Of a DNA stretch of 64,000 bases, positions 1-33,153 are shown one piece after another. The DNA lies in the IMG/VR virus record IMGVR_UViG_3300050343_000218; one strand, given 5' to 3'. The first letter of the stretch is position 1. Each line of letters begins with the position of its first letter. The translations under genes and the position numbers were made by a program. The notes under the pieces were generated by a model. The model made no database searches and had not been told where the DNA came from. It worked only from the letters and a program-made list of their open reading frames with translations. The DNA comes from a virus.

Positions 1-38
1 GGTTGTTGAGTAAAGTCTACAGGGTCAGGGGTAGGAAT

Positions 39-239
39 CTAGTAGCTTTGTGGCAGTTCGCTACGTGTCCCATATGGACCGCCCATCGCTGGACCGTCTC
101 CCTCTTCCTTGGGTCGTACCATAGCAGCGGCAGAATGGAGAGAATCCGATGCTGTGATCTGGATCCCCTCCCTGATGCTTTCATTAGTAACGACAGCACC
201 TGCAGCGAAAGCGGCAGCGTATGAAAGAATTTTAAGCAT
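39..239 (-). CDS. small hypothetical protein with hydrophobic N-terminus
   Basis: 66-aa ORF in a co-oriented run of small genes; starts MLKILSYAAAFAAGAVV. Confidence 0.55.
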   Translation of the reverse strand: MLKILSYAAAFAAGAVVTNESIREGIQITASDSLHSAAAMVRPKEEGDGPAMGGPYGTRSELPQSY

Positions 240-277
240 TTGGGTTTGGTTTGTTTGCTTGTGTGTATACTAGACGA

Positions 278-490
278 TCATAGGCAGTCGTCTATAGCTT
301 TAAAGACACTTCGCACATCGTCCATCTCATCCGAGATATCGTCACGATCAAACAAAGCATCCTCAATCAATGCCTCCAATGATGCATCCCTGCTGGCAGT
401 GTCAAAGATCTCACCAGCACAATCCTGAATTTCGTTCCACATAATTTTGTCGTAATGAAGGGCAATTGAACAGGGGTCGGAATAGGTCAC
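278..490 (-). CDS. acidic hypothetical early protein
   Basis: 70 aa; start overlaps the stop of the upstream ORF at 487-490. Confidence 0.7.
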   Translation of the reverse strand: MTYSDPCSIALHYDKIMWNEIQDCAGEIFDTASRDASLEALIEDALFDRDDISDEMDDVRSVFKAIDDCL

Positions 491-684
491 AGAATGCCTA
501 GGGCAACTGCTTCCATTACGTCGCCATACTCTCCGACGATTTCACCGAAGGAATCACGGATGTATGCATACTTACCAGATTCATCGTGCATAGCGTAGCA
601 GATGTCCATAGCACGGTCGATGTCCGTGGTGAACTCGGTCTCCCCTAGTGCAGGGCAGTTGATTTCGTAGGTTTCGTTTGTCAT
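487..684 (-). CDS. cyanophage-type hypothetical early protein
   Basis: Track ORF 487..741; ATG at 684 (MTNETYEINCPALGE) preferred because it avoids overlap with the upstream gene. Confidence 0.7.
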   Translation of the reverse strand: MTNETYEINCPALGETEFTTDIDRAMDICYAMHDESGKYAYIRDSFGEIVGEYGDVMEAVALGIL

Positions 685-17656: not shown

Positions 17657-20600
17657 TTATGCGCAAGTGGGGTTACAATCGCCTAGGTAAGAGAACAGAA
17701 CTGGCCACGGAGCAGGGATCTGGAAGTCCAATGCTCTAGGTGCAATTCCATCAGTTACCTTAATTTGTGCAACACCTTCCATACCGATGATCGGTTGTTC
17801 ACCGTGACCACGGTCGCGGAGGGGTTTAATGAAGTTACAGAAGTAATCATTAGATGGTGTAATGCAAGCACCGTTAGAGGTGTATGCAAAATCATAAGTG
17901 TGGTCCTGGCAAGGATCAGCAACTGCCACAAGGTTAATCAAGTCAACCAAATCGAATGGAGACTCAACCAGCTCCACCCACAATGTGTAGACCTTTTGAG
18001 TACCACGTGCAGGGAAGATAGCAGGTTGAATGTCATTCTTAACAGAGAAGTCAACAGGAAGGTTGACGTTAGTGTCACCACGGAAAGGACACTCGCGAAG
18101 TACTCCAGTTGCCGCGGCCAATTGACCACTATAAGTAGAGAAGTCGCCAGTATTAACAATCGTAGGAGCGTTAGCGTGGGCAGGATTATTTGTAGTGTAA
18201 ACAGTTCTAGTACCACTATCAACGTTTTCCATATAAGGGAACTCATTGATCAGACGCAATCTCCAGGTAAACTGACCAGCATCGATTGTGTAAGAGACCG
18301 TCACATCTTGTGACTGGTTGTTACTCACAGTCAGATTCTGTGCACCTTTGTAGTAATCTTGTACTTGCAAGGTGTTGATGTCAATGTAAGGCAGTGCACT
18401 CAAAGGTGCAGGACCCACGTCAATAACGAAAGAGCGAACTAAGACGTTACCAAAGTAATCGCCACAAGTCAGAGTAGTATCAACGAAGCCTTGATCGTGA
18501 CGCAGATAACCATTAGAAACGGTACCAGTCCAACCATTAGCATACTCATACCACCACATACCCATTTCAGGTGGGTTAGCAATAGCACTGATTTCGTTCG
18601 ACACAGAAGATAATGCATCGCCATTACCAACCACAACTTGATAAGCATACGGGTCATTTACACCACTTGGGATGCCCTTACAAGGAAGGTCAGTAACACG
18701 AAGCACAGTACCATCGTTTGCCAACGGAGGCTGTAGTTGTGAAGAAGATTGAACAGGAATTTCAATCTGAGGACCACCATAGTTCACACGAAGTGGGAAG
18801 TCTTCATCGAATGAAACGTAGTTCGCTTCGTAGATGCTAGCACCATCGAGAACACAAGAAGAATGATATGCAGTAGTATTGTTACCGTAATCTCTCCTGG
18901 ATCTATAATGTGGTGACTTGAGAGGAACATAAGTAGAACTGGTGTTAGCAACAGTGTCCCAGTTATAGGACTTAACGCCAGTAGAGGTATCATAACTATA
19001 AAGCTTTCTGTACCAGTTGAACTCGATGTTCTGGTCAGTACAAACAAGATTCACTGGGTAACGACCATCCTTAGGGGATTTGTTACTAGACTGATACGGT
19101 AACGTGTTAGGGAAGTGTGTTAAAGCACCATACTCAGTCACAACAGAGTAAGAACTCGAAGTGATTGATGTAGCGCCAGATTCCATTGTCAGCAGAGGTT
19201 GTGCAGGAACTGCAGGGATATTAGTAAGACCAAGCTGTAACGTATTGGAAAGCAATGCATTGAATACGCTGGTGAAATCAAGGTGCTGTGTAGCAAATGT
19301 AGTACCACCTGCCTGACCGAAGTAGAAGACAGAACCAGCTTGAGCTTCATCAACGATAAGATCGACCCAAGCACCTGGTGTGCCAGGAGTACCGTAACGT
19401 CTAACGTTAGTGCCAATGTATGCACTACCAGTAGCAGATTCTCTCAGTTCTAGGTTCTTACCAACCCAGGAAGCATCGCTAATATCAAAGCGATACGTAG
19501 CACCTTTGGGTACTTCAAACACAGTAGAACCAGACTCGTTAATGACAGTAGCATAGTCATTACCAGTAGCAACTAGATTGAATGTCAAGCGATAACGCAT
19601 CTTGAGGCGGAAGAAATCTTGATCATAATTCCACCATTTGTTAACAATGAGGAAAGAGATTGCAATTTCGTGTCCTGTGACATCTTCAAAAGTCTCATTG
19701 TAAGAGTAGAATTGATCTCTCGCTGCCAAATTATTCTCGAACCAATCGCCTTCTTCAATCTGACAAGATTGACCAGCAGCAACAGGACCAGTAGAATACT
19801 CGTTAATGTTATGCCATATGAAACCTGCACCTTTATCTCCCCAAATTTGCCACTGAGGAAGATAATCAAATTGAGTATTTTCGTAACCAGTTTGATATGC
19901 AAGAACACTGAATGACTTATAGCTCAGAGGACGTGAATACCACTTATTCTCTTCCCAGATAAGATCATCATTAGGTTGTCCGTCTTTCTTAGTGACAGTC
20001 AAGTAATCAATTGTTCTCGAAGCACCACCAGTCTTCAGCGCAACATTCTGTACTGTAACAGTAGTGTTAGTAAGCTGAATAGTATACTCTTGAGTCTGAC
20101 CAGAAATATTTTCTTCTACAGTCAGTGTCAAGTCAAGGGTTGTGTTGTTGATCAACGTACCACTCAAGACACCAGTTTCGGTATCGAATGCAAGACCAGT
20201 ACCAACAATAGAATCACCAGTCAGTGAATAATCTCTATCGAGAATTGTCTCTGCAGCATATGTTCTTAAGAAAGAAACACCAAGCTGAAGGTTGATAACA
20301 TCACCGATGTTAAATGTACCCAAAGCACCTGCAGGTGTGTACCACGTGGTCAACAGGTTGATATAAGGAGAGAACAGACCGCGAACATAACCGCCATCAA
20401 CACCCTTATCTGTAGGAAGGTAAACGATCTCATCACCTTCACCATTTCCAGCATCTTCTTGAGCTTCAGTCTGGAAATATAGTTTGTTGCCAACAGGATT
20501 TTCATCCATCCAGCGTTGGATACCATCAGCACGTTGATGAGTACCGTTCAAATTAGCAATCTTGATCAGATTGCCACCAGTTTCAGACTGAACACCAGTA

Positions 20601-23600
20601 AACTGAGCAGCATCAGGTTCAATTGTAATTCTGCTGTTAGCAGTATCAACATCAGTAATGGTTTGCCAGTATCTCTGAAGCACGTTGAATTGCACACCAC
20701 CAATGTCATAGACATAGGAGGATCCTTCTACAGCATTACCACCAGGATAGACAGGATCTGAGTAGAAGTAGTCACCCATTATGTAAGGATATGCAGGAGC
20801 TCCATTCTGATCTTCAGTGATGAAGTAAGCATAGGTTCCATTCGGATAGTCAGGTGTCACACAGTAGCGACCATTTCTGCTATCAACGTCACCGATGATA
20901 ATACGCTCACCCATATTAGAGTGATTGTAGCAGAAGTAGTACAACACGTGGGGAGCATTTGATGCAGGAGTATACTCAATGCTTCTCAAAGTAGCAGTGT
21001 CAAATCCTGCGACATATTCAGAATATGTTACTACAACATCTTCCAACTTGTACACAACACCGATTGTATAAACAGCGTTAACATCACCAGGAGACGATCC
21101 TGCAACGTGCCAACCTTGTGCTTGAGCATCACCATTAGTTGATAGCAGCATCATATGGCTGGTATTTGAACTATCAGAAAGGTTAAAGGTATACTTTCTA
21201 CCTTTCTTAAAGTTAAATGATGGTTTCTCAGCAGAACCACTTAATGTTCCACCAGAGATATAATAGCGACCACCACTACCACTAACAGTAGCAGCTGCAG
21301 CTTGAACATTGTAAGTAATGTCAGTAATATTATCTTCTTCGCTACCGCCTTGGAATTCAAAGTCTTCGTTAAAAGATCCAATAGGATAGGTTGTTTTGTC
21401 TGGACGTGATCCAAACATATCAGGAACTCTATTCTCTAGTTTCGGCAGATATGCAGGCTTCATACGAATAACCGCACTGCTATTGTCATCACGATCAGAA
21501 TAACCGTAAGGACCATAGATTGGATAACCGTCAAATGTCATACCAAGAATCTTGGAGTGACCGTTAGTATGACGCTTGTAATCACCCTGAACATTGCTGT
21601 TCACGACAGATTGATTACCCATACGTGGATGATTCACACAGACATAATACAGCAATGCAGGAGAGTTTTGAGGAACAACGATTGTAACCGTACGAGTAGT
21701 AGCACTATTGAAGCTATTGCTGAAAGTAACAGCATCAACTGCAGCACCATCCAATCTGTAAGTAACACCATCGCTATAACGAACACCACCATTATGAATA
21801 CCATCATCAGTGGTGGAGAAGTACATCGGGTGATTATCATTAGAAGAATCACTTAGATCAAAGATGTAAGTGTTACCTCTAGTGAAGTCCAGTTGTGGAG
21901 CTTCAACGTTAACGGTGTACGTATCACCACGGAGTACATAGTTATTAAGACTACCTTGATTGTAGTAAGGAGCTGATGCTGACTTAGTATCAGTGGTAAT
22001 AATATAGTTAACAGTACGATATCCTAGATCGTAGTAAGATTGAGACAGATAGTTAGAACCAGAAACAGCAACGGTGCCGTATGCACTCAACAGTTTGCTT
22101 GAGTTATAACCATAAACGTTAGCAGCACTTGGATAACCACCATAAGAGTCTTCACCCACGAGGTTACCATTAGTAACTGTATTGTATGTCCAACCAGGAG
22201 TAGGACCATTCTCGAAGGAATAGTGGTACAGGAATGTACCAGTAGTAGTAATACCGAAAGCATTTACACTGCGTAAAGGCTTCATCTCTACCAAGCTGGC
22301 AGATGCATAGTTAGTACCACCTCTCCAGTTAAAGTTCTGGTTAAAGGATTGCTTATCAATACTATTTGGGTTACCTGCAGTAATAGCAATCTGTGCAACA
22401 GATGTTGCTTGCACACCACCACTAACGTTTGGAGGATTAATAGTAACAGTAGGAGAAGTTGTGTATCCAGAACCCTGTTCAATCAAGTTAAGACCAGAAA
22501 CATAACCATCTAGCACTGAGATATTAGGAGATGCTACTGTACCAACACCGCCGCCACCACTAAATGTGATGTTAGCGTAAGTATAACCAACACCTTGATC
22601 AGTTACATTAATAGTATCAACTACACCAATTTGTGTACCAATCGTACACACAGAAGATGCAGGTTGCTCAAAGATTGGGTTTTGCGGTGCAGTGTCAGCT
22701 TCAGTGACTGGTTCGCCGTAGTACCTATCTCCTAGAATATATGGGAATGCAGGATTAGCAGAAGCATCGAATGTAGTGAAGTATGCATATGTGCCGCCAG
22801 GGAATTCAGGAGTGACACAGTAGCGACCATTGCAACGATCTAAGTTGCCACCACCAAGGTACTGATAGTCTTCCACAAATGAACCCATCGGATATGCCGT
22901 AGTAGACGGAGCATAACCAACTGGTTCAGTCAGAGTAATCGTACCTGTCATTGCCTGATGATTTTCGCAGACGTAATAATAAGTTCCAGGGGCTGTAGTT
23001 GTAGTACTCCACAACAACGTAGCATTGTAGCTACCATTGTTAACAACACCAGCAACAACTTGTGCAGGGTTATAAGGTGCAGGAACTTTCTGAATCCAGA
23101 AAGGATGAGTAATTGTAGTTCCACCGCCACCACCAGCAGACTGGATAGTGATAGTACCGACCATACCGCCGTGATACTCACACTGATAATAGTAAGTACC
23201 AGCAGAACCAATACCTGGAGTCCAAGCGACAGTACCAGACTGAGTACCTTGATTACTAACACCAGAGATTTGATTGCCAGTACCAGTACCAGCTGCAGTT
23301 TTTAGATAGAATGGGTGACCAGATGCAGACACCGTGAAGTTAATAGTATCACCTTCATAGAATGTCAGACTAGGATCAGATCCACTAACGTTGCCAGTTC
23401 TATCAGAACCAGAGACAGTGTAATCGCTAAAACCACTTGCAGTAACAACTAAGTTATAAGTTGCAGGTGTACTACCACCGCCACCACCAGTAGTATAAGA
23501 AGCATTGACGTTGAACACAAGGTTGTCGCCAATGTTAGCAGCGATTGCAATATCACTACCAATTGCTTCTCCAGTAAAATCAAAGTCTAAGCTATCATCA

Positions 23601-26600
23601 GCAGTAACACCCCAGGTGTACGTAGATCCACTATATTGTGTCCCATCACGCTCTCCCTTAACACCCCAAGAACTTTGCATTCTTGAAAGTGTGGTGGGTG
23701 AACCAGGACTTGAATAACCAATAGGACCGTAGATTGGATAACCATCGTATGCATAACCAATCACAGGAGAGTGATGAGTTGCATTAATAATATCTGCAGT
23801 TGTATGCGAAGGAAGAGCTGCAGTGTTTGTAGTTGTAGTCACAGATGCAGCATTGCCGTATCCAGAATACAATGAGCAGTAGTAGTAGAGATTAGGGGTG
23901 TCAGGTTGAACTTGAAGATATAAACCTGTACCAGATACACCGTCACCAGGTGTACCTTGATAACGATATCCAATCTCGTATGCAACACCGCCTTGAGTAT
24001 GCACACCATCCTGAGTTTCAGAGATTCTGAAAGGATAACCAGCGTTACTTACATCACTCTGATCAAAGTAATAAGTATTACCTTCAGTGAGAATGATATT
24101 AGGTGTCAGACCATTGTTAAGGTAGTACTTGTTACCACCACCAGGATCATTAATGGTTACAGTATAGGTTGTAGAAGAACCTTTCCAAGTATTAACTAAG
24201 AAATTACCTGTAATGTAGTGATACATACCAGAACCATCTACAACACCGCTACCATTATCAGCGCCAAATGCAGTAGAGTTGAAAATTTTGTTGAAGGTAT
24301 ATCCATCAGGACAACCAGTACCATCAGGCAAATCAACATTCAAACCGTGCGAAAGATGACGCAGTTGTACACCATTCAGCGCCATACCAATAGAAGGTTG
24401 AGCTAAAGTAGATGTAGGAGATTCATCGGAAATATTTCTACCACCACGATAAACCCAGGTATGGTTGTAAGACTGACCTGTAATAGTATTGGAGTTATTG
24501 CTATTTGGGAAAGCTCCATACAATGCAGGTTGAGGCAGGTTATCTGCAATAACCGTCAGCAATCTTGTAGTCTGATTCAGTGACGAAGAGGTAGTAGAAC
24601 CACCGCCAGACACGAAAGAACTATCAGGAGCGTGGATAGTGTTACCTTGATTAGCTGCAGCAGAGATTGCAATGCCAACAGTAGGTGCCTCAGAATATCC
24701 TGATCCAGGATTAGAAATATTAACCGCACTAACGATACCATCAGTAATGACAGCTACAGCAGTAGCACCAGATCCACCACCACCAGTAAATGTAACTGCA
24801 GGAAGGTTTAGAGGATTATAACCAGAACCACCATTAGTAACCGTAACAGAATCAATACCACCACCAGTTAGAGAGATAACAGCTGTTGCAGTTGCGCCAG
24901 TACCATCACCAGCGATATCAACAGTAGGAGCTTCGGTATATCCAGCACCACTTTGATCAACGTTGATGCTTGTAATATTACCACCAGTCAGTGTGATGTC
25001 TGCGGTTGCAGTTGCACCAGTACCGCCACCACCAGTAAATGCAACAGATGGGACAATAGTATAACCAGAACCTTGATTCTGGATAGACAAGGTAGAAACA
25101 TAACCAGTAGTACCACCAGAAGGGAATACACCAGCAAGACCAGGAGCAGGATCGTTATCAGTGACAAGATTCAACAATCCGCCAGCTTGATAATATGCTG
25201 CTGTCGGTGATCCATCACTACTAACCCAAACGTCAGTGATGATATCCACTGAAGGAACTGCCTCAGGGATACGGAACTGCATCTTATCACCAACAGTAGC
25301 ATCGAATCTAGAGAATTCACTACCCAATGTGATAGACATTTCATTGGTGCCAGCACCAACAGCAATGTAAGTATTGATGCCATCGAGAGTAATCTCATCG
25401 ATGTCATTAGTAGGATAAACGTTTACACTACCACCACCATATTCTTCACCAACAGCGGATTGCGTTCTCTCGTAATCCCAATCAATTTCTCTACGAATCC
25501 ACTCTTTAGCAAGTTTAGGAACAGATTTGCCTTCATATGTTGCTCTGTTCTCATATCCTTTCTTGCCCAAATACTGCGCGATAACGCCAGCAGTCAGAGG
25601 ACCAGAGAATGAAGTACCACGAATATAAGCATAATAAATGGAACCAACAGAGCTGTAAGAACTGTTGGTGTTCCAATAATACTGAGGGCAGTAAATTGAT
25701 TCTCCAGGACCACTGGTGGTAACACCAGTACCATAGTTTGAGAATCCTGAGAATGTATTATTATATGCCGTAGCACCGACAGAAATCTTGTCGCTAATAC
25801 CCTCCATATTATATCTGTAGTCCTGAGGACCAGCAGTACGAGGACCAGGATTAAACTTAGCTTGGAATCCACCGTACTTAAAGTTATAACCGTAACCGTT
25901 ACCAGCAGAGCGAACGAATACGATTCCGTTTTCTACACAAAGATTTTCATAGTCGTCCATAGCAGTGTCTGCTTCATATGAACCACTATCGAATCCAGGT
26001 TCGTTCTGAGGAACGTAACGATAGACTTCAGACGGAATAGTACCAACACCCAGAGAAGCATTGATAATAGCTGGTCTAGTACTTCCTTTATAGTTAGGAT
26101 GAGCAGGATCGTTATGGTTGATGATTGCTAGTAGAGCAAACACATATGTGGACAATAGACCACTACCAGCGCTGTTCTGACATTTCAGTGCATAGAATCT
26201 AGTCTTACGTGCAACACCGTGCTCCAGACCACCAATTAGAATGGCACATTGACTACCGTGACCATTGTCATCTTCGTTAGAGTTTGCCTCACCATTTACA
26301 GTGTATCCTGAATTGTATCCAGGAACTTCATAGACACGATATTCAGCCTGATTAATAGCAGTATTGTAGTCATCAGCATAATCAGGGTGGAATAGTTCAG
26401 GGTGCAAGTTAGCACCAGTAACGTTAGTAGGACGTGATGCACCACGAATACCAGTATCAATAACATAACAGTCAACACCCTCACCGTGCTCGGTGTAAGA
26501 GTACAGACCATAATTCAGTGAATTTTGTTGCTGAGTGATACGTGCAAGATACCACTTACTAAAGATTGCGACTTTACAATGATCGGTAGCATTTAAGAAT

Positions 26601-27346
26601 CCACCGCCACGCAAACCAACTCTTGAGGTTTCGTTAGCATAAAGATAAAGCTGCTGCGGAGTTGTCTGCGAAACAGTTAGTGTTACTTCAGCACCAGTGG
26701 TACCAGGAGTAGCAGTTCTGGAGACACCAACCACATAGTTAGTACCGCCATTATGAGTACCATCAGGAGTCTCAGAGAAAGCTAAAGTATAACCAAAGTT
26801 AGAGTTATCAGAAACATCAATAACTAATTCGTGTCCAGGAAAAACATATGTCAGGTCAGGAGCTTGTGATCCGTTGATGTATAACTTAGGACCACTAGTA
26901 GTATTAACAACAGTAGCAGCGATTGAATACTGAGTACCAGAACCAACGTTATAAGGAATAACGTTGCCGTAATCGCTAGGTTTAATTTGACGTGCTAGCG
27001 CATCAATGTCTTCGTTGTCAGTTGATAAAGACTCTGCAATTGCTCTTCTATCAAAAGAACCACCTTGCACATCAACTTCTTCTAATCCATATGTCTGTGA
27101 ATCATCAGTTTCTACCCCCGTTAGGTAAATTTCTCTATCCCAAACAGCTCCAATAACCTCAGGGAATTCATCTCCCTTTAATATTTGTACAAAGTTATCG
27201 TCTTTTACGTCGAAATCTAAGAATAAAGTCTTAAGACGACTCAGATCTTCGGTGTTCTGAAGTGATGTAAAACGCTGTTTCGCTCTTTCGATGACAGCGC
27301 TGGCTTGATTTTCCTTAGAAATTCTCGCAATAATTCTATTGCTCAT
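17657..27346 (-). CDS. giant virion-type protein: I9-like prodomain, S8A subtilisin domain, two YHYH-like domains, several cupredoxin-like domains, Gly-rich repeats
   Basis: D297 (VIDTGI), H363 (NGHGSQ), N483 (SAGNG), S579 (GTSFSG); HSPVIGYAYDGYPIYGP-type motifs x2; CxxHxxM x4. Confidence 0.8.
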   Translation of the reverse strand: MSNRIIARISKENQASAVIERAKQRFTSLQNTEDLSRLKTLFLDFDVKDDNFVQILKGDEFPEVIGAVWDREIYLTGVETDDSQTYGLEEVDVQGGSFDRRAIAESLSTDNEDIDALARQIKPSDYGNVIPYNVGSGTQYSIAATVVNTTSGPKLYINGSQAPDLTYVFPGHELVIDVSDNSNFGYTLAFSETPDGTHNGGTNYVVGVSRTATPGTTGAEVTLTVSQTTPQQLYLYANETSRVGLRGGGFLNATDHCKVAIFSKWYLARITQQQNSLNYGLYSYTEHGEGVDCYVIDTGIRGASRPTNVTGANLHPELFHPDYADDYNTAINQAEYRVYEVPGYNSGYTVNGEANSNEDDNGHGSQCAILIGGLEHGVARKTRFYALKCQNSAGSGLLSTYVFALLAIINHNDPAHPNYKGSTRPAIINASLGVGTIPSEVYRYVPQNEPGFDSGSYEADTAMDDYENLCVENGIVFVRSAGNGYGYNFKYGGFQAKFNPGPRTAGPQDYRYNMEGISDKISVGATAYNNTFSGFSNYGTGVTTSGPGESIYCPQYYWNTNSSYSSVGSIYYAYIRGTSFSGPLTAGVIAQYLGKKGYENRATYEGKSVPKLAKEWIRREIDWDYERTQSAVGEEYGGGSVNVYPTNDIDEITLDGINTYIAVGAGTNEMSITLGSEFSRFDATVGDKMQFRIPEAVPSVDIITDVWVSSDGSPTAAYYQAGGLLNLVTDNDPAPGLAGVFPSGGTTGYVSTLSIQNQGSGYTIVPSVAFTGGGGTGATATADITLTGGNITSINVDQSGAGYTEAPTVDIAGDGTGATATAVISLTGGGIDSVTVTNGGSGYNPLNLPAVTFTGGGGSGATAVAVITDGIVSAVNISNPGSGYSEAPTVGIAISAAANQGNTIHAPDSSFVSGGGSTTSSSLNQTTRLLTVIADNLPQPALYGAFPNSNNSNTITGQSYNHTWVYRGGRNISDESPTSTLAQPSIGMALNGVQLRHLSHGLNVDLPDGTGCPDGYTFNKIFNSTAFGADNGSGVVDGSGMYHYITGNFLVNTWKGSSTTYTVTINDPGGGNKYYLNNGLTPNIILTEGNTYYFDQSDVSNAGYPFRISETQDGVHTQGGVAYEIGYRYQGTPGDGVSGTGLYLQVQPDTPNLYYYCSLYSGYGNAASVTTTTNTAALPSHTTADIINATHHSPVIGYAYDGYPIYGPIGYSSPGSPTTLSRMQSSWGVKGERDGTQYSGSTYTWGVTADDSLDFDFTGEAIGSDIAIAANIGDNLVFNVNASYTTGGGGGSTPATYNLVVTASGFSDYTVSGSDRTGNVSGSDPSLTFYEGDTINFTVSASGHPFYLKTAAGTGTGNQISGVSNQGTQSGTVAWTPGIGSAGTYYYQCEYHGGMVGTITIQSAGGGGGTTITHPFWIQKVPAPYNPAQVVAGVVNNGSYNATLLWSTTTTAPGTYYYVCENHQAMTGTITLTEPVGYAPSTTAYPMGSFVEDYQYLGGGNLDRCNGRYCVTPEFPGGTYAYFTTFDASANPAFPYILGDRYYGEPVTEADTAPQNPIFEQPASSVCTIGTQIGVVDTINVTDQGVGYTYANITFSGGGGVGTVASPNISVLDGYVSGLNLIEQGSGYTTSPTVTINPPNVSGGVQATSVAQIAITAGNPNSIDKQSFNQNFNWRGGTNYASASLVEMKPLRSVNAFGITTTGTFLYHYSFENGPTPGWTYNTVTNGNLVGEDSYGGYPSAANVYGYNSSKLLSAYGTVAVSGSNYLSQSYYDLGYRTVNYIITTDTKSASAPYYNQGSLNNYVLRGDTYTVNVEAPQLDFTRGNTYIFDLSDSSNDNHPMYFSTTDDGIHNGGVRYSDGVTYRLDGAAVDAVTFSNSFNSATTRTVTIVVPQNSPALLYYVCVNHPRMGNQSVVNSNVQGDYKRHTNGHSKILGMTFDGYPIYGPYGYSDRDDNSSAVIRMKPAYLPKLENRVPDMFGSRPDKTTYPIGSFNEDFEFQGGSEEDNITDITYNVQAAAATVSGSGGRYYISGGTLSGSAEKPSFNFKKGRKYTFNLSDSSNTSHMMLLSTNGDAQAQGWHVAGSSPGDVNAVYTIGVVYKLEDVVVTYSEYVAGFDTATLRSIEYTPASNAPHVLYYFCYNHSNMGERIIIGDVDSRNGRYCVTPDYPNGTYAYFITEDQNGAPAYPYIMGDYFYSDPVYPGGNAVEGSSYVYDIGGVQFNVLQRYWQTITDVDTANSRITIEPDAAQFTGVQSETGGNLIKIANLNGTHQRADGIQRWMDENPVGNKLYFQTEAQEDAGNGEGDEIVYLPTDKGVDGGYVRGLFSPYINLLTTWYTPAGALGTFNIGDVINLQLGVSFLRTYAAETILDRDYSLTGDSIVGTGLAFDTETGVLSGTLINNTTLDLTLTVEENISGQTQEYTIQLTNTTVTVQNVALKTGGASRTIDYLTVTKKDGQPNDDLIWEENKWYSRPLSYKSFSVLAYQTGYENTQFDYLPQWQIWGDKGAGFIWHNINEYSTGPVAAGQSCQIEEGDWFENNLAARDQFYSYNETFEDVTGHEIAISFLIVNKWWNYDQDFFRLKMRYRLTFNLVATGNDYATVINESGSTVFEVPKGATYRFDISDASWVGKNLELRESATGSAYIGTNVRRYGTPGTPGAWVDLIVDEAQAGSVFYFGQAGGTTFATQHLDFTSVFNALLSNTLQLGLTNIPAVPAQPLLTMESGATSITSSSYSVVTEYGALTHFPNTLPYQSSNKSPKDGRYPVNLVCTDQNIEFNWYRKLYSYDTSTGVKSYNWDTVANTSSTYVPLKSPHYRSRRDYGNNTTAYHSSCVLDGASIYEANYVSFDEDFPLRVNYGGPQIEIPVQSSSQLQPPLANDGTVLRVTDLPCKGIPSGVNDPYAYQVVVGNGDALSSVSNEISAIANPPEMGMWWYEYANGWTGTVSNGYLRHDQGFVDTTLTCGDYFGNVLVRSFVIDVGPAPLSALPYIDINTLQVQDYYKGAQNLTVSNNQSQDVTVSYTIDAGQFTWRLRLINEFPYMENVDSGTRTVYTTNNPAHANAPTIVNTGDFSTYSGQLAAATGVLRECPFRGDTNVNLPVDFSVKNDIQPAIFPARGTQKVYTLWVELVESPFDLVDLINLVAVADPCQDHTYDFAYTSNGACITPSNDYFCNFIKPLRDRGHGEQPIIGMEGVAQIKVTDGIAPRALDFQIPAPWPVLFSYLGDCNPTCA

Positions 27347-27380: not shown

Positions 27381-27387
27381 TATTTAT
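27381..27387 (-). promoter_or_regulatory. T4-type late promoter
   Basis: ATAAATA upstream of the 3229-aa gene, overlapping the previous stop. Confidence 0.65.
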
Positions 27388-28049
27388 GATCTCAGATCGC
27401 CTTTAGTTCGTAGTAAATGCATTTTCTGTTCGTCTATGATTCTAACCATTTCCCATTCAGGAGAATCTGGACTGTATTCTGTATTAGTAATACATTCTTG
27501 CATTCTTGCAAATGCCAGACGATCCATAGGATCTTTGAGTCTAGACTGAGCCCAAAGCACTGCTACTTTCCTTTCACCAGCAGTTACAGGTTTAACTCTA
27601 TGTGGTATTCCAGTAGGGTAACTAAATGCCCACCCTGCTGGTAACTTAACACTAATCAGTTCAGTGCCAAGTTTAATCTCCAATTCCCCACCTTCATAGT
27701 CTTCATTTAAAAAAACTGTGGTACTAACATCAGATCGTAAATCTTGATTAGAACCCATATGTGCGTGATCGGTATGCCAATCATAATGGCATCCTACACC
27801 ATACTTACAAAAATGTGGTAACGTATAAGCACAGCTCAGCATTGAGTCGCGTACAACATCACAATTATCCATAGAACCTTCCAATATACTCCAGCACGCA
27901 TATGCAGACTGTTTGTCTATTTGGAAATTATTCTTTACTCGTTTATCGCTACTGCCAGATTCTTTACCATCCTCCCAGGTACCAGCATCACAAAGATTTA
28001 ATATATGCCCGACTTGGACGGAATTCAAAAGTTCATAACGATAAAACAT
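27384..28049 (-). CDS. PKHD-type 2OG-Fe(II) hydroxylase (YbiX/PiuC-like)
   Basis: WHTD, STTVFL, YEGGEL, HRVKPVTAGER. Confidence 0.88.
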   Translation of the reverse strand: MFYRYELLNSVQVGHILNLCDAGTWEDGKESGSSDKRVKNNFQIDKQSAYACWSILEGSMDNCDVVRDSMLSCAYTLPHFCKYGVGCHYDWHTDHAHMGSNQDLRSDVSTTVFLNEDYEGGELEIKLGTELISVKLPAGWAFSYPTGIPHRVKPVTAGERKVAVLWAQSRLKDPMDRLAFARMQECITNTEYSPDSPEWEMVRIIDEQKMHLLRTKGDLRS

Positions 28050-28051
28050 AA

Positions 28052-28702
28052 TTAAGAGGGTTTAGTAGGCCAACCAGTAAAGTTTTCAGGATCGTAGGGA
28101 TCATCTGTTTGAGCAGCAGGAAGATCTCTAAGTAATGTACGATATGCTGCCCATTCAGCTTTTTTCTCATCAGTAAGAGGAGAATCAGCCATCTGGGTCC
28201 AATCACAATCAAGTAGACGAGTGTGTCTCGCGTGCTTCAATGTTTTCATATTCTCAGGAACACCTTCGGTAAGGTATCTGTGAGCATCAAATTGTTCTTC
28301 TACAACTGCCGCCTCAGCTGCAATATGCTCTGCCGTAAGTTCTTCTAGTCTAGTCCTAAGAGCATTGTAAATCTTATCTGCTTCTGCCGTACTAGGACCA
28401 CCATTCAGAGGCGTTTTATTATAGTTACTAGGAATCTCTCCAGAACACTCTGTGTTCTCTGTGATATAAAAAGATGGTGAGATAATTCCGTCCCCATCAT
28501 CTGAAGATAACCAATAGTACATCATCTCAAATTGATCAACACCAGGAACATCCCAAATGCCAACCAAAAGAGGTGCCACTAATGTATTATATTCTTCGCC
28601 AATATCAAAGAAGAGAGTAGTTCCAAAAGGAGCGTGGTACGTACCAATCACCTTCTGAATATTGTTAATAACTAATGCTGCTTTTCCAAAATCTCTTGCC
28701 AT
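28052..28702 (-). CDS. tail fibre assembly chaperone
   Basis: C-terminal RLLDCDWTQMADSPLTDEKKAEWAAYRTLLRDLP..WPTKP is the Tfa/tail-APC signature. Confidence 0.85.
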   Translation of the reverse strand: MARDFGKAALVINNIQKVIGTYHAPFGTTLFFDIGEEYNTLVAPLLVGIWDVPGVDQFEMMYYWLSSDDGDGIISPSFYITENTECSGEIPSNYNKTPLNGGPSTAEADKIYNALRTRLEELTAEHIAAEAAVVEEQFDAHRYLTEGVPENMKTLKHARHTRLLDCDWTQMADSPLTDEKKAEWAAYRTLLRDLPAAQTDDPYDPENFTGWPTKPS

Positions 28703-28703
28703 T

Positions 28704-29351
28704 TTATGCGTTGTGATAGTACCAACCAGTCAAGATATATTTATTGCCTTTTAATACTGTATTTCCTCTGTGGGGATGCGTAAAACCAGCTGGCCAAACT
28801 ACAACAGTTCCTGCAGGAGGTTTAACCCGACGTTTTTGCATCAAAAACTCAGTCTCACCAGCTTCATAATCATCATTCAAATATATCGCCCACACTAAAC
28901 ACCGAGAAGAATGGTTAAGACCCATAGCCTCATAATGCCAGACGTGATATCCACCACCTTCCTCTGTTTTTTGCAACTTGATGCAACTACTAATCAGTGA
29001 TTCGCCTGCAAGCTGTGGAAACTCACCAATGTAATGTTCAACAGTTGATGCCAAATATTGATTAGTGCATTGCTGCAACTCAAGATTTTGATGAGTAATC
29101 AGGGTTTGTTTATCATATCTACCCTGCTTCCCTTGAGGAAACTGAAATCTACCGTCAGCAATATCACCGTTATCCATTGAGGATCCGATAACACTAGCGT
29201 GAGATTCTAGATCATCAAACCAATCAATATATTTCTGACACTCGGATTTGGGCATAAAACTATCCCAAACACCAATAAAATCATCAAAGTTTGATTTAGT
29301 CAAGTTCTCATCGAGCATCAGCTCTAGAGGACGAATAGGTGTAATGTCCAT
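28704..29351 (-). CDS. 2OG-Fe(II) oxygenase, P4H-like
   Basis: WHYE, IYLND, AGETEF, HPHRG, KYILTGW. Confidence 0.88.
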   Translation of the reverse strand: MDITPIRPLELMLDENLTKSNFDDFIGVWDSFMPKSECQKYIDWFDDLESHASVIGSSMDNGDIADGRFQFPQGKQGRYDKQTLITHQNLELQQCTNQYLASTVEHYIGEFPQLAGESLISSCIKLQKTEEGGGYHVWHYEAMGLNHSSRCLVWAIYLNDDYEAGETEFLMQKRRVKPPAGTVVVWPAGFTHPHRGNTVLKGNKYILTGWYYHNA

Positions 29352-29354
29352 TAA

Positions 29355-32246
29355 TTAAACGATTTTAAGTCCGCATTCTGTGTAGTTACCCTCAAGACCA
29401 CCATAGGTTGCCCTGAGAGCAATTTCATTGCTGGTACCAACTCCGATACCATTAGCATCATTATAGATCGCAGTGTTCAGATCTGTCAAGTTATTGTATG
29501 TGGTACCGAAATTATTGATGAAGTTGTTCATCCAACCATCAAAGGCAACAGCATCAGGTCTTCTATCAAGAATAACCTGATAACTACCGAGAATTTGCGT
29601 ACCAATCTGACCGTATGTAAATGTACCTACAGCTGTAGTATTTGCATATGAAGAATTGGTAGTCTGAACAAAGTATCGATTCTGACCAGCGTTAAATGCG
29701 TTAAGGGTACCATCATTATACTTGAGATAACCAAAGAATGTGTCACCATAACCTGCAGCACTTGTACCCGTACCAGTGGTGCAATTCACGGTCACTGTTA
29801 CTTCAGCATCAGCAACTCCTGCAGGACCAGACACATCGATATCATAGAGTGTAGTCTCTGTCGGAGAAACAGTAGTAGTACCACTAACAGTAGATGCACC
29901 GAAACTAGAACTTACAACAGTAGTAGCATCTGTAGATGTCCAAGTCAAAGTAGACGTGGAAACAGGATTTGTTGCTCCAGTGCCAATCTCAAGGACAGCT
30001 GGTACAGCAGATAGGACAACTGTAGGTAGTTGAGTTACGGATATAGTAACATTTTCCGTAGTAGTACCAGCAGCATTTGTAGCAGCAATAATAAATTGTG
30101 TACTAACATCTGGCGATATACTGATGGTAGTTCCACCCAGAGATGTCAAAGAATTCCATATTGTATTTGCAGGAACGGAAGAGTACGTAACACTATCAGC
30201 TCCACTAATCGTAAGTTCAATTTGTGCGCCAGGATCAGCACCTATATTAATAGAATTAATATCAGATGTCATCGTTACTACTGGTTGAGCAAGAGGATTG
30301 ACCGTAACAGTTATATTCTCTGTAGTAGATCCATTCGCATTACTCAACGTAACGTAGTACGAAGTGTCTGCCGTAAGTTGAACGTCTGCAAAAGCTTCTT
30401 TAGGATCATTGACTCCAGGAATGTCACTGCCAACAAATGTATCAGAATCTGGAGAAGCGTATTGAACACGTGTAAATCCATTATAATCAATTGTCTGTGG
30501 TGTCGCTGTAAGAGCGATCGTTGGTGCTGCACCAATATTAAGTGTAACGGGAATAGTTGCTGTTGTCTGACCATATGCATTACTAACAGTAACTGAATAT
30601 GTTATATCAGCAGTTGGAATAATAGAAATTGTTTCACCTGTCGGGACAGTAGCACCAAAGTTAGATCCGACAAGAGATGTTGCACCAGGAGCAGCATAAG
30701 TAATGCTTGTGGCGCTTCCAGGTTCGACAAGAGAAGGTAGTGCCGATATCGTAACTACTGGAGCAACAGCATATGTTACGCTGGCAGTTCCTGTTTTAAC
30801 TAAGTTAGTACCATCATAAATTTCAATCGTATAATTAGCAGCTGTCCCACCTAATGCAGGACCTTCAAGTACCATCGATACAGTATCACCAACAATATAT
30901 CCACTCTTAGTATTGGTACCTGTGCCCTGCACATTAATTGGTGTGGCACCAACATCAGCTCCACTAGTCTTCTTGACAAGGACGGTAAAACTATAAACAC
31001 CATCACAATCTGTAATCTGGAAAGATGTTGCAACAGTTCCAGATGCAGTGGCAACTGTTTCATCTAGAGGTCCAAAATCACCAGGAACGTTATCTCCAGT
31101 ATCAGCTGGTGGTGCAGGTGCAACATATGCTGCAGCACTTACGCCCAAGAAAATCATATAAGCTGTTTCTTGATAGGAAGGAGTAATCGTAGGGTCAGCA
31201 TTCAAACCAACACTGACACCTAAAGTAAATGATACATTATCAGCATTTGCCTGTTGCGAACCAGTAGTAAGTCCTACAGATCCACCACCAGCTTTAGCTT
31301 CAAGAATGCAATCTCCAGTGTTTTCTTGGCATTGACCTATGTTGTTAATATCTCCGTTAAGGAATGCAGCTCTCCACGCATCAATACCGCCTCGTTGTGC
31401 TTCCCAAGCTGTGCCCAAGTGAGCGTTACCAGCATTGGCTCCGATCGAATCGCCAAAACTTCTATGATAAGAAGTAGTAGCCCATATAGTACCGCTAAAA
31501 GCTATCCAATGCGCGTGAGGTTGTGATGTAAAAGCTCTATTACCTGCAGTAGCTGCAGCTAGATCTTGAAAATTTGAAGTGTGCGCAACGTTGGAATTAC
31601 TTTTAACCCCAGTTTCACCATTTCCAGGACTGGTTCTATCAAGAGTTTTACTATTACCACTTCCAGTATTAGTTACAATTGCTTTTCCCGTAGGGTCGTG
31701 ACTATGAGATGGATAGTTTTGCGCCGTGTGATTAGAAGTATGTCCACTATTCACCTTCAAGATACTGTTTGCAACCAAAGAGGTGGCAATAGTAGGCGAT
31801 GTTTTATTTAAAGTAATGCTAGGGTTGCCAATAACTTGCACTCTAGCGGCAACATCAGAAATACGCATAACGTTTTTACCGCCATACGTTCCACATACAT
31901 TCGTACCATAACCACTCGGACCACCTAAGTGAGCTTCCAATTGTGGAGATGAACTAACTTCTGGTCTAAGTCTACCTGTACCAATAGCTTTTTTATCTCT
32001 CAGGTCTGGTACTTTATACTTTCCACTAAGTTGTCCATAAATCGTACCACTAGCAGTGCCACCATAGGTATTACCAATAATTTGATACAATCCATAAAAC
32101 TCATTAGGATCTAATTCTCTGCCATTACATTCTTGCCATCCTGCAGGAGCAAAATAATCTCCATTGCTATCTTTCGGCATCATACAAATGGTGCCTACTT
32201 GAACTCCAGTCCAAGATGCTTGTGTTTGAGAGTAATACTTTGACAT
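29355..32246 (-). CDS. collar-domain tail fibre with four Ig/PKD-like repeats
   Basis: VGTI..APAGWQECNG..LYQIIGNTYGG..VPDLR collar motif; repeated ~80-aa units ending N..G.T...VTV. Confidence 0.82.
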   Translation of the reverse strand: MSKYYSQTQASWTGVQVGTICMMPKDSNGDYFAPAGWQECNGRELDPNEFYGLYQIIGNTYGGTASGTIYGQLSGKYKVPDLRDKKAIGTGRLRPEVSSSPQLEAHLGGPSGYGTNVCGTYGGKNVMRISDVAARVQVIGNPSITLNKTSPTIATSLVANSILKVNSGHTSNHTAQNYPSHSHDPTGKAIVTNTGSGNSKTLDRTSPGNGETGVKSNSNVAHTSNFQDLAAATAGNRAFTSQPHAHWIAFSGTIWATTSYHRSFGDSIGANAGNAHLGTAWEAQRGGIDAWRAAFLNGDINNIGQCQENTGDCILEAKAGGGSVGLTTGSQQANADNVSFTLGVSVGLNADPTITPSYQETAYMIFLGVSAAAYVAPAPPADTGDNVPGDFGPLDETVATASGTVATSFQITDCDGVYSFTVLVKKTSGADVGATPINVQGTGTNTKSGYIVGDTVSMVLEGPALGGTAANYTIEIYDGTNLVKTGTASVTYAVAPVVTISALPSLVEPGSATSITYAAPGATSLVGSNFGATVPTGETISIIPTADITYSVTVSNAYGQTTATIPVTLNIGAAPTIALTATPQTIDYNGFTRVQYASPDSDTFVGSDIPGVNDPKEAFADVQLTADTSYYVTLSNANGSTTENITVTVNPLAQPVVTMTSDINSINIGADPGAQIELTISGADSVTYSSVPANTIWNSLTSLGGTTISISPDVSTQFIIAATNAAGTTTENVTISVTQLPTVVLSAVPAVLEIGTGATNPVSTSTLTWTSTDATTVVSSSFGASTVSGTTTVSPTETTLYDIDVSGPAGVADAEVTVTVNCTTGTGTSAAGYGDTFFGYLKYNDGTLNAFNAGQNRYFVQTTNSSYANTTAVGTFTYGQIGTQILGSYQVILDRRPDAVAFDGWMNNFINNFGTTYNNLTDLNTAIYNDANGIGVGTSNEIALRATYGGLEGNYTECGLKIV

Positions 32247-33127
32247 CAGATTTTAATGATATACTCTAAAATTAAGTATGGTGTTGTTAAATGATCTAAA
32301 GATTTTCTAGCATCTGCCTGGATGTTAGCAGTTGCACTAGATCCGTTATAATTAATGGTAGTCGCAGCTCTAGTATACTGTAAGTTGTTCTCTACAGAAC
32401 CGCCAGTGACTGTATGATTATGTGTAATATTTGCACCACTGTGAGTGACCGTAGTTGTACTAGTTTGATACTTCACAATGTCAATTGAAGTACTATCCTG
32501 AAGGTCATTATCAAAACCTTCATCTCTCATATCAGATTCATACCACACGTCATTGTGAGTGTGAGCAGCAGTTTTTCCAATATCAATTGTATTTGTTGTC
32601 GATGTCCCGTTATTTTCAATGGCAAAAGTTGGTTGCCCAGAAATATTAGCTGTATAAACACTATCTTCAATGGTTCCGCTCATTGTTGTAGTAACCACTG
32701 ATGCTATGCTAGCAACATATCCTATACCAGCTCTTTCATAAATGCCGCCAGAAACATTGTTGCCCATAAATTCCTGCCCAGCTGAACTGTTAGGAACTAA
32801 GACTTTAGCACCTAGATTAGGAACTGCAAAACTACCTCCAGTAAAGTTGCCATCCGAATCAAACGTAGGGTTAATCAAAACTGAAGAGTCTATTCCAGGA
32901 TTAAAAGCACATCCAGGAACACCAGATCCTCCTGATGGACCAACCCCAATAACTCTAGCTAAACCAGGAAAATCTTGAGCTTGATAAACTTTGCCATCGC
33001 AACGTAAGTATCCACCAGGGACACGTTCTAATAAGTTTGCATCAGATTGACATTCCTTTGAAAAAGGAACAATCACTCCAGGTGCAACACCTTGAGCTCC
33101 TCTAATATTAGCATATACTTTCGCCAT
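32246..33127 (-). CDS. collar-domain short tail fibre (gp12-like)
   Basis: PGVIVPF..GGYLRCDG..FPGLARVIG..VPNL; C-terminal PYLILEYIIKI. Confidence 0.82.
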   Translation of the reverse strand: MAKVYANIRGAQGVAPGVIVPFSKECQSDANLLERVPGGYLRCDGKVYQAQDFPGLARVIGVGPSGGSGVPGCAFNPGIDSSVLINPTFDSDGNFTGGSFAVPNLGAKVLVPNSSAGQEFMGNNVSGGIYERAGIGYVASIASVVTTTMSGTIEDSVYTANISGQPTFAIENNGTSTTNTIDIGKTAAHTHNDVWYESDMRDEGFDNDLQDSTSIDIVKYQTSTTTVTHSGANITHNHTVTGGSVENNLQYTRAATTINYNGSSATANIQADARKSLDHLTTPYLILEYIIKI

Positions 33128-33146
33128 TGGTTGTGATGCCCTAAGA

Positions 33147-33153
33147 TATTTAG
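33147..33153 (-). promoter_or_regulatory. T4-type late promoter
   Basis: CTAAATA about 20 nt upstream of 33127. Confidence 0.5.

What the first reader, a model, noticed from the sequence alone, without database searches (positions are those of the whole stretch)
25470..27346. Complete proteinase-K-family protease with prodomain at the head of a 3229-aa late protein
Seen: D297, H363, S579 and oxyanion N483 are all present in S8A context (YLARITQ..YSY...GEGVDCYVIDTGI). The first ~75 aa resemble an I9 propeptide, and a ligand-less cupredoxin-like domain separates it from the catalytic domain. No signal peptide is evident; the gene has a late promoter and sits in the fibre block. Inference: a self-maturing virion-borne protease that could cut host S-layer or surface proteins or process fibres. 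T4-like phages normally carry only the gp21 prohead protease.
Basis: partly seen in the sequence, partly recalled or inferred. Interest (0 to 1): 0.8.

Follow-up and report, generated by a model that had tools for sequence, protein, structure and literature searches.

The report
Pro-subtilisin head on cyanophage tail protein
A giant late tail-region protein of an uncultured marine cyanobacterial virus begins with a complete, apparently working subtilisin-type protease and its folding/inhibitor prodomain; the gene family was briefly noted in 2010 but never studied, so these viruses may carry a protein-cutting enzyme on the particle.

Summary
ORF 17657-27346 (-) encodes 3229 aa. Its first 626 aa contain a proteinase-K-type S8 subtilase domain (Pfam PF00082, E 4e-22; family profile versus aqualysin, E 3e-26). 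D297, H363, N483 and S579 are invariant in 30 homologues down to 35% identity.

- **Prodomain:** residues 1-75 fold as a beta-alpha-beta-beta-alpha-beta domain. AlphaFold2 docks it on the catalytic domain as in pro-subtilisin E and PCSK9. No sequence model identifies it as I9.
- **Insert:** a variable linker (76-135) and a cupredoxin-like module with all four copper ligands replaced (136-250) lie between prodomain and enzyme.
- **Context:** the gene sits in the fibre/baseplate block of a T4-like cyanomyovirus behind a CATAAATA late-type motif. Its P-HM2 orthologue is transcribed late.

Not shown: presence in virions, activity, substrate.

The family is not new. Sullivan et al. 2010 list an S8 peptidase in P-HM1/P-HM2, S-BM3 has one annotated, and more than 100 metagenomic relatives exist. 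This scan also noted the same family on other DNA.

Verdict: a real pro-subtilase module with an unusual split layout. The virion-protease role is plausible but untested.

The parts
17657..27346 (-). Whole gene: 3229-aa late tail/baseplate-module protein. Order: pro-subtilase head, Ig-like repeats, two YHYH units with nested cupredoxin domains, then a highly conserved C-terminal ~330 aa.
   Evidence: PHROG hits: phrog_27200 (E 7e-174), phrog_708 baseplate wedge subunit, phrog_4406 virion structural protein.
27381..27388 (-). CATAAATA, a 7/8 match to the T4 late promoter TATAAATA, 34 nt upstream of the ATG. It overlaps the stop codon of the upstream 2OG-Fe(II) oxygenase gene.
   Evidence: Of 12 ATAAATA in the window, 11 are on the coding (-) strand and at least 7 lie 16-40 nt upstream of ORF starts.
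27122..27346 (-). aa 1-75: prodomain-like beta-alpha-beta-beta-alpha-beta domain (I9-like by fold and predicted docking).
   Evidence: (pLDDT 80-88).
26942..27121 (-). aa 76-135: poorly conserved, low-confidence linker. Its start is the inferred autocleavage zone, just after the W69-D70-x-E72 motif.
   Evidence: (36% identity against 69% for the S8 domain).
26597..26941 (-). aa 136-250: cupredoxin-like beta-sandwich with all four type-1 copper ligand positions replaced (Y186, A237, T240, V243).
   Evidence: Homologous copies in relatives keep H/C/H/M. Pfam PF00127 and the source name 'plastocyanin' appear on relatives.
25469..26560 (-). aa 263-626: S8A proteinase-K-type catalytic domain. It begins with WYLARITQ (compare WGLDRIDQ of aqualysin) and has family-specific insertions at about 306-345, 433-461 and 484-516.
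26456..26458 (-). Catalytic Asp297 codon (GAT).
26258..26260 (-). Catalytic His363 codon (CAC).
25898..25900 (-). Oxyanion-hole Asn483 codon (AAC).
25610..25612 (-). Catalytic Ser579 codon (TCA).

Best explanation
The first ~626 residues are a zymogen-form proteinase-K-type subtilase fused to the head of a giant tail/baseplate appendage protein of a T4-like cyanomyovirus.

Shown:
- An intact S8 fold and catalytic tetrad under strong conservation.
- An N-terminal ferredoxin-like domain predicted to sit on the catalytic domain where I9 prodomains sit.
- A linker plus a ligand-less cupredoxin module inserted between the two.
- Late-gene and fibre-module context.

Inferred mechanism: the protein is made late in the cytoplasm without a signal peptide. 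The prodomain assists folding and keeps the enzyme inhibited. The enzyme cuts its own chain just after the prodomain's last strand, around residues 72-80. The rest of the chain (cupredoxin, protease and a 2600-aa body) is built into the virion, probably anchored through its most conserved C-terminal ~330 aa. Once the prodomain is lost, the exposed protease cuts proteinaceous material on the cyanobacterial surface, which aids access to the receptor or outer membrane.

The confidence given (0.45) is for this full reading, including the virion-displayed, trans-acting role. The core claim alone, a catalytically competent pro-subtilase head on a late structural-module protein, I put at about 0.85.
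For: - S8 identity: Pfam PF00082, E 4e-22. The family profile scores aqualysin 3e-26 and proteinase K 2e-21, against about 1e-12 for subtilisins. Foldseek top hits are proteinase-K-like enzymes.
- Conservation: D297/H363/N483/S579 and the substrate-cleft segments (S392, S395, N429, S431, G433) are invariant or nearly so in 30 relatives down to 35% identity.
- Prodomain: a beta-alpha-beta-beta-alpha-beta fold at pLDDT 80-88. Single-chain pro-forms give the top structural matches, with about 50-75 more aligned residues than mature enzymes at the same rmsd. PCSK9 5vla_A: Z 28.9, 298 aligned, model 1..645. Unprocessed pro-subtilisin E 3whi_A: Z 27.0, 315 aligned. ProN-Tk-SP 3afg: Z 25.9, 318 aligned. 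Mature enzymes: Z about 25, about 245-250 aligned, mostly starting at model residue 262-264.
- The N-domain profile matches the N-termini of relatives in which that domain directly abuts S8 (hhalign probability 89%, E 2e-6).
- Structural context: PHROG hits to baseplate wedge and virion structural proteins. Neighbours are fibre, collar, chaperone, gp5-like and gp48-like genes.
- Timing: late-type motif. The orthologue PHM2_106 falls in the Late (E) cluster with g13 (PMC5082946 S2 Table).
- The head module (N-domain, cupredoxin, S8) is kept on at least three different protein bodies of about 3230, 1950-2080 and 1830 aa.
Against: - No virion proteomics, activity or processing data exist for any member.
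- The N-domain is a generic ferredoxin-like fold. ACT/RAM domains score Z 9, against 7.7-7.8 for convertase prodomains. Pfam I9 and PDB sequence profiles do not detect it.
- The docking comes from an AlphaFold2 model of only moderate confidence (mean pLDDT 63, pTM 0.65). It may reflect learned priors, and no PAE or coordinates could be inspected.
- Several catalytic-domain loops, including the stretch that starts at N483, have pLDDT below 50.
- A 185-aa insertion between prodomain and enzyme is not the classical layout.
- The best structural match, PCSK9, uses its triad only for self-cleavage.
- No proteinaceous surface layer is documented here for the hosts of the cultured members.
Confidence: 0.45

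Rival explanations
1. Self-processing only (PCSK9-like or intramolecular-chaperone-like). The triad serves a single autocleavage that accompanies folding and assembly of the giant protein. Afterwards the prodomain stays bound, or the head is discarded. The domain then acts as a structural or binding module and has no substrate in trans.
For: PCSK9 chains are the top structural matches (Z 28.2-28.9). Triad invariance is equally expected if only autocleavage is selected. Phage fibres commonly use self-cleaving chaperone domains (established knowledge: Peptidase_S74 of endosialidases and T5 pb1).
Against: Substrate-cleft segments and the oxyanion Asn are conserved as in broad-specificity proteinase-K enzymes. 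Known fibre auto-chaperones are C-terminal and are not S8. The module is kept on very different protein bodies, which suits an enzyme cassette better than a body-specific chaperone.
Confidence: 0.28
2. Cytoplasmic morphogenetic protease. The head trims other late proteins (fibres, baseplate parts) during assembly inside the cell and is not needed on the finished particle.
For: Late expression and a position among fibre genes, beside a fibre-assembly chaperone and two 2OG-Fe(II) oxygenases. No signal peptide.
Against: It is fused in one reading frame to 2600 aa of structural-type domains in every relative. No separate free-standing form of this clade was seen apart from short metagenomic fragments. 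T4-type tail and fibre assembly has no known need for such a protease (established knowledge).
Confidence: 0.15
3. Inactive relic. The S8 domain is a pseudo-enzyme kept for its fold only.
For: Large insertions with low model confidence interrupt the domain. The Asp aligned with the FSNYGS(C)VD calcium-site region of aqualysin is replaced by T in GVTT (alignment; the ligand assignment is from memory).
Against: All four catalytic residues and their flanking glycines are invariant across relatives down to 35% identity, while neighbouring domains diverge freely.
Confidence: 0.05

Closest known systems
T4-GC519 / phrog_27200 proteins of cyanomyoviruses: P-HM1 PHM1_104, P-HM2 PHM2_106, the MED4-213 orthologue and S-BM3 SBM3_00202 ('peptidase S8')
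   Same: They share the N-domain, cupredoxin and S8 head at 35-41% identity over aa 4-692 (P-HM1, P-HM2) or 171-692 (MED4-213), with phrog_27200 at E 7e-174. They lie in the structural gene region and are expressed late in P-HM2. The MED4-213 BFVD model superposes over 671 columns.
   Different: The body behind the head differs. Here it is 2600 aa with YHYH and copper-type domains; in P-HM1 it is about 1200 aa with Ig domains. The cupredoxin copy here has lost its ligands. In S-BM3-type proteins the prodomain abuts S8, and a ligand-bearing cupredoxin sits inside the catalytic domain.
Secreted proteinase-K-type subtilases with I9 propeptide (aqualysin I 4dzt, proteinase K 1ic6/8rse, Meiothermus keratinase 5wsl; MEROPS S8A)
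   Same: Same fold, triad order, oxyanion Asn, WxLxRI start of the mature domain and substrate-cleft segments. An N-terminal beta-alpha-beta-beta-alpha-beta domain is predicted in the I9 position.
   Different: There is no signal peptide. A 185-aa linker plus cupredoxin insertion separates the prodomain from the enzyme. Three family-specific insertions lie inside the domain. It is fused to a giant phage structural protein. The prodomain is not detectable by I9 sequence models.
PCSK9 and unprocessed pro-subtilisins (5vla, 3whi, 3afg, 2e1p)
   Same: These are the best whole-module structural matches, with prodomain and catalytic domain superposed together (Z 24-29, 298-327 aligned residues).
   Different: Only 19-22% identity. 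PCSK9 is a binding protein after a single self-cleavage. Whether the phage enzyme turns over substrates is unknown.
Enzyme-armed phage tail fibres and tailspikes (glycan depolymerases) and self-cleaving fibre chaperones (Peptidase_S74)
   Same: A catalytic domain built into a tail appendage protein, which is the functional analogy behind the proposed role.
   Different: Those enzymes cut polysaccharide, or cut only themselves. None is an S8 subtilase, and the S74 domain is C-terminal. No homology was found or tested beyond the domain searches.

Membership tests
Peptidase S8 (subtilase), Pfam PF00082 | Score above the curated gathering threshold | tested here: met
   79.2 bits against 21.8, E 4.2e-22, aa 295-598. 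Not reported when the full 3229-aa protein is scanned.
Peptidase S8 (subtilase), Pfam PF00082 | Catalytic triad in the order Asp-His-Ser, plus the oxyanion-hole Asn | tested here: met
   D297, H363, N483 and S579 align to aqualysin and keratinase motifs and are invariant in 30 relatives.
Peptidase S8 (subtilase), Pfam PF00082 | Subtilase alpha/beta fold | tested here: met
   Foldseek E 1e-11 and TMt 0.65-0.69 to 2b6n, 5wsl, 1sh7 and 4dzt. VIA Z about 25 over about 245-250 residues.
Peptidase S8 (subtilase), Pfam PF00082 | Proteolytic activity | not testable with these tools
   Needs enzyme assays or activity-based probes.
Proteinase K subfamily of S8A | Closer to proteinase K/aqualysin than to true subtilisins, thermitases or kexins | tested here: met
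   The family profile scores aqualysin 3.4e-26 and proteinase K 2e-21, the best subtilisin 1.7e-12 and thermitase 1e-7. The mature-domain start WYLARITQ aligns with WGLDRIDQ.
Peptidase inhibitor I9 propeptide (PF05922) | Beta-alpha-beta-beta-alpha-beta fold N-terminal to an S8 domain | tested here: met
   E3-9, H12-25, E29-35, E40-45, H50-57, E64-69 at pLDDT 80-88.
Peptidase inhibitor I9 propeptide (PF05922) | Sequence match to the I9 family | tested here: inconclusive
   No Pfam I9 hit at E<=10. hhalign against four Pfam-I9-positive propeptides gives E 0.08. The profile finds nothing in PDB. Genuine propeptides of cellular relatives also score at or below threshold.
Peptidase inhibitor I9 propeptide (PF05922) | Docks on the catalytic domain as in pro-subtilisins | tested here: met
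   In the AF2 model only. Pro-forms align over model residues 1..645 with about 50-75 more residues than mature enzymes, at equal rmsd. The model has moderate confidence (pTM 0.65).
Peptidase inhibitor I9 propeptide (PF05922) | Directly precedes the catalytic domain, with the cleavage site at the junction | tested here: not met
   A 185-aa linker plus cupredoxin module intervenes. S-BM3-type relatives do have the direct junction.
Peptidase inhibitor I9 propeptide (PF05922) | Autocatalytic removal and inhibition of the enzyme | not testable with these tools
   Needs expression of wild type against S579A and N-terminal mapping.
Type-1 copper cupredoxin (PF00127), for the module at aa 136-250 | His, Cys, His and Met copper ligands | tested here: not met
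   Y186, A237, T240 and V243 occupy the columns where H is present in 24, C in 18, H in 18 and M in 20 of the 30 aligned sequences. The fold is kept but no copper site is possible in this copy.
Cyanomyovirus T4-GC519 / phrog_27200 | Significant full-head homology to P-HM1/P-HM2 proteins | tested here: met
   phrog_27200 at E 7e-174. tblastn against P-HM1 gives E 9e-84 over 98% of aa 1-700.
Virion-associated enzymes of tail appendages | Presence in the purified particle | not testable with these tools
   Only context and PHROG names of the fused domains are available. No proteomics was found.

The most novel reading that the evidence does not exclude
T4-like cyanophage particles carry a self-activating, catalytically active subtilase on a giant baseplate appendage and use it to cut host surface proteins during adsorption. 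This would be a proteolytic counterpart of glycan depolymerases. The recurrent pairing with cupredoxin modules (two different insertion topologies) may make its activity metal- or redox-responsive.
Probability: 0.35. Interest if true: 0.8.

Novelty: new variant of a known kind. Interest (0 to 1): 0.55.

Why it matters
Phage particles are known to carry sugar-cutting enzymes and peptidoglycan hydrolases. A broad-specificity protease displayed on the tail has not been studied. If it is active on virions, it would point to a protein barrier or protein receptor-masking layer on Prochlorococcus or Synechococcus that these abundant ocean viruses must cut through, and it would add a new determinant of host range.

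The family is common in marine viromes (at least 112 IMG/VR contigs). Domain pipelines miss it on the full-length protein. It has culturable representatives (P-HM1, P-HM2, MED4-213, S-BM3), so the idea can be tested directly.

Tried and rejected
- Megablast of the region against cultured phages found no match. The phage is uncultured, and its nearest gp32 DNA is about 76% identical to ACG-2014e and S-CAM3.
- A Pfam scan of the whole 3229-aa protein does not list S8. Only the 700-aa piece does.
- Foldseek with the N-domain alone found nothing at E<=1e-3.
- The wide VIA search with the N-domain gives only generic ferredoxin-like ties. ACT/RAM domains score Z 9 and convertase prodomains Z 7.7-7.8. 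The fold alone therefore cannot name it I9.
- The N-domain profile against PDB sequences found nothing. hhalign against Pfam-I9-positive propeptides found nothing.
- A whole-genome search for gp21 or other S8 genes could not be run, because no genome is held for this window.
- Literature searches for the locus tags, for S8 with tail fibre, and for virion-associated subtilisin-like phage proteins found nothing relevant.
- No second S8 was found among the other large ORFs of the window that were scanned.
- A calcium-triggered activation idea was considered. It is not supported by the one calcium-site position I could align, and it was not pursued.

Full report
**What is there.** The window's - strand carries an ORF at 17657..27346 encoding 3229 aa. 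The finding's span, 25470-27346, corresponds to residues 1-626. By position, D297, H363, N483 and S579 sit in VIDTGIR, NGHGS, SAGNG and GTSFSGP.

Scanned alone, the first 700 aa hit Pfam Peptidase_S8 at 79.2 bits against a cut-off of 21.8 (E 4e-22). The same model is not reported when the full-length protein is scanned. The precomputed Pfam labels of the ~3230-aa relatives also lack PF00082. This probably explains why the protease goes unannotated.

phmmer against PDB ranks aqualysin-1, Meiothermus keratinase and proteinase K first, with all three catalytic motifs aligned. A profile of 30 family members scores aqualysin at 3e-26 and proteinase K at 2e-21. True subtilisins score about 1e-12 and thermitase 1e-7. 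The proteinase-K subfamily assignment is therefore sound.

**Is it more than chance, and is it conserved?** A word-indexed search found 120 long relatives. A full HMMER pass found 2405 hits at E<=1e-3, 18 of them below 1e-30. IMG/VR holds at least 112 contigs that encode the head module.

In an alignment of 30 N-terminal regions at 35-79% identity (A1), the four catalytic residues are invariant, as are G299, G362, G364, G482, G484, G577, T578 and P583. The cleft-forming segments (S392, S395; N429, S431, G433) are invariant or nearly so. Within the ~3230-aa class the S8 domain is 69% identical on average and the N-domain 68%. The linker at 76-135 is only 36% identical. This pattern indicates selection on catalysis.

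**Structure.** AlphaFold2 on A1 gave a model with mean pLDDT 63 and pTM 0.65.
- A confident beta-alpha-beta-beta-alpha-beta domain at 1-75.
- A low-confidence stretch at 76-135.
- An all-beta domain at 136-250.
- The subtilase core at 263-626, interrupted by low-confidence insertions at 306-312, 433-461, 482-516 and 525-543.

Foldseek's best PDB hits are proteinase-K-like enzymes (E 1e-11).

In the VIA re-alignment, the top matches are chains that contain both prodomain and catalytic domain.
- PCSK9 5vla_A: Z 28.9, 298 aligned, model range 1..645.
- Unprocessed pro-subtilisin E 3whi_A: Z 27.0, 315 aligned.
- ProN-Tk-SP 3afg_A: Z 25.9, 318 aligned.
- Pro-Tk-subtilisins: about 320 aligned.
- Mature enzymes: only about 245-250 residues aligned, mostly starting at model residue 262-264, at the same rmsd of about 3 Å.

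The extra 50-75 residues are the N-domain. In the model it therefore occupies the I9 position.

Folded alone (pLDDT 82), the N-domain is a generic ferredoxin-like fold. Foldseek finds nothing significant. In the wide VIA search, ACT/RAM domains (Z 9) outrank the PC1/3 and PCSK9 prodomains (Z 7.7-7.8). Sequence tests for I9 are negative or weak, although genuine propeptides of cellular relatives are also near threshold.

The N-domain profile does match the N-termini of relatives in which the domain is joined directly to S8, such as S-BM3-type proteins (hhalign probability 89%, E 2e-6). My reading is that this is a functional prodomain analogue, very probably a divergent I9. That rests on predicted docking and position, not on sequence membership.

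**The inserted module.** Residues 136-250 align with copies that in most relatives carry the four type-1 copper ligands. The counts in the four ligand columns are H in 24, C in 18, H in 18 and M in 20 of 30 sequences. The window's copy has Y186, A237, T240 and V243, so 'ligand-less cupredoxin-like' is right.

In S-BM3-type proteins the prodomain abuts S8. There, a ligand-bearing plastocyanin-like domain is inserted inside the catalytic domain, at the place of the window's loop 433-461. S8 and cupredoxin are thus paired in two different topologies.

**Context and timing.** The neighbours are:
- fibre-like proteins (12840-13757, 14426-15685, 15686-17632);
- two 2OG-Fe(II) oxygenases flanking a fibre-assembly chaperone (27384-29351);
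- collar-domain fibres (29355-33983);
- a 2161-aa fibre (33962-40447);
- a gp5-like hub (46369-50181);
- an M23-peptidase protein (52045-55524);
- gp48-like and baseplate wedge-like (phrog_232) genes;
- gp32.

The phage is an uncultured T4-like cyanomyovirus. Its region has no near DNA match, and its gp32 is about 76% identical to ACG-2014e and S-CAM3.

CATAAATA lies 34 nt upstream of the ATG. ATAAATA is not over-represented in the window (12 observed against 13.6 expected). However, 11 of the 12 are on the coding strand, and at least 7 lie 16-40 nt upstream of ORF starts. The P-HM2 orthologue PHM2_106 falls in the Late (E) expression cluster with g13 (PMC5082946, S2 Table).

**What is known.** Sullivan et al. 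2010 list 'an S8 peptidase' among genes shared only by P-HM1 and P-HM2 (PMC3037559). The paper writes T4-GC518, whereas the GenBank record gives GC 519 for PHM1_104. S-BM3 SBM3_00202 is annotated 'peptidase S8'. BFVD/UniProt name S8/S53-domain proteins in ACG-2014e and ACG-2014h, and in Agrobacterium phage Atu_ph07.

Among cultured phages, only P-HM1, P-HM2, MED4-213 and S-BM3 carry this head. They account for the 7 of 13 matching records that cover the S8 domain. By contrast, 377 records share other parts of the protein. I found no experimental work on any member.

Earlier notes of this scan describe the same family in other genomes, and S8 genes in tail modules of unrelated phages. I treated these as leads only.

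**Mechanism.** The core is well supported at about 0.85: a catalytically competent pro-subtilase head on a late structural-module protein. The role is inferred.
- I favour a virion-displayed protease that self-activates and cuts host surface protein (0.45).
- Next is a self-processing-only, PCSK9-like or chaperone-like module (0.28).
- Then a cytoplasmic morphogenetic protease (0.15).
- Least likely is a dead relic (0.05).

One orientation clue: the last ~330 aa are the most conserved part of the ~3230-aa class (85% identity). That fits a virion-anchoring C-terminus and a distal N-terminal enzyme head, but it is weak evidence.

**Verdict.** This is a new variant of a known kind: a subtilase zymogen with a module inserted between prodomain and enzyme, fused to a giant cyanophage appendage. 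It belongs to a gene family already listed in the literature but never characterised.

Noticed in passing
window 17657-27346 (whole protein): Pfam reports Peptidase_S8 on the first 700 aa but not on the full 3229-aa query. Precomputed Pfam labels of the ~3230-aa relatives also lack PF00082. Automatic annotation therefore misses the protease.
   Followed up: partly
P0131, P0133, P0128 (S-BM3-type relatives); L002:9737-17683: In S-BM3-type proteins the prodomain-like N-terminus abuts S8. A plastocyanin-like domain with Cys/His/Met ligands is inserted inside the catalytic domain, at the position of the window's loop 433-461. This is a second, independent S8-cupredoxin topology.
   Followed up: partly
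window 17660-18646 (aa 2901-3229): The C-terminal ~330 aa are the most conserved part of the protein among 17 full-length relatives (85% identity, against 36% for the linker and 69% for S8). This is the opposite of a variable receptor-binding tip.
   Followed up: partly
window 20880-24700 (aa ~880-2155): Four C-x2-H-x2-4-M motifs (C1389, C1460, C1903, C2139) lie in cupredoxin-like modules nested in two YHYH units. Pfam Copper-bind hits at aa 1447-1472.
   Followed up: no
window 15686-17632 (-): Residues 18-184 of the next gene match the extreme C-terminus (positions 1656-1828 of 1832) of phrog_27200, the P-HM1-type S8 protein. A module fused in P-HM1 is a separate gene here.
   Followed up: no
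window 13787, 27381, 28738, 40484, 45084, 56426, 57238 (- strand): ATAAATA motifs lie 16-40 nt upstream of ORF starts. Of 12 copies in the window, 11 are on the coding strand although the total count equals chance. This is consistent with NATAAATA-type late promoters.
   Followed up: partly
window 27384-29351 (-): Two different 2OG-Fe(II) oxygenase genes flank a tail-fibre assembly chaperone (PF16778) immediately upstream of the protease gene.
   Followed up: no
window 52045-55524 (-): A 1159-aa protein next to the gp5-like hub carries a Peptidase_M23 domain (aa 905-1001). It is probably a tail-associated peptidoglycan endopeptidase, and so a second peptidase domain in the structural module.
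   Followed up: no
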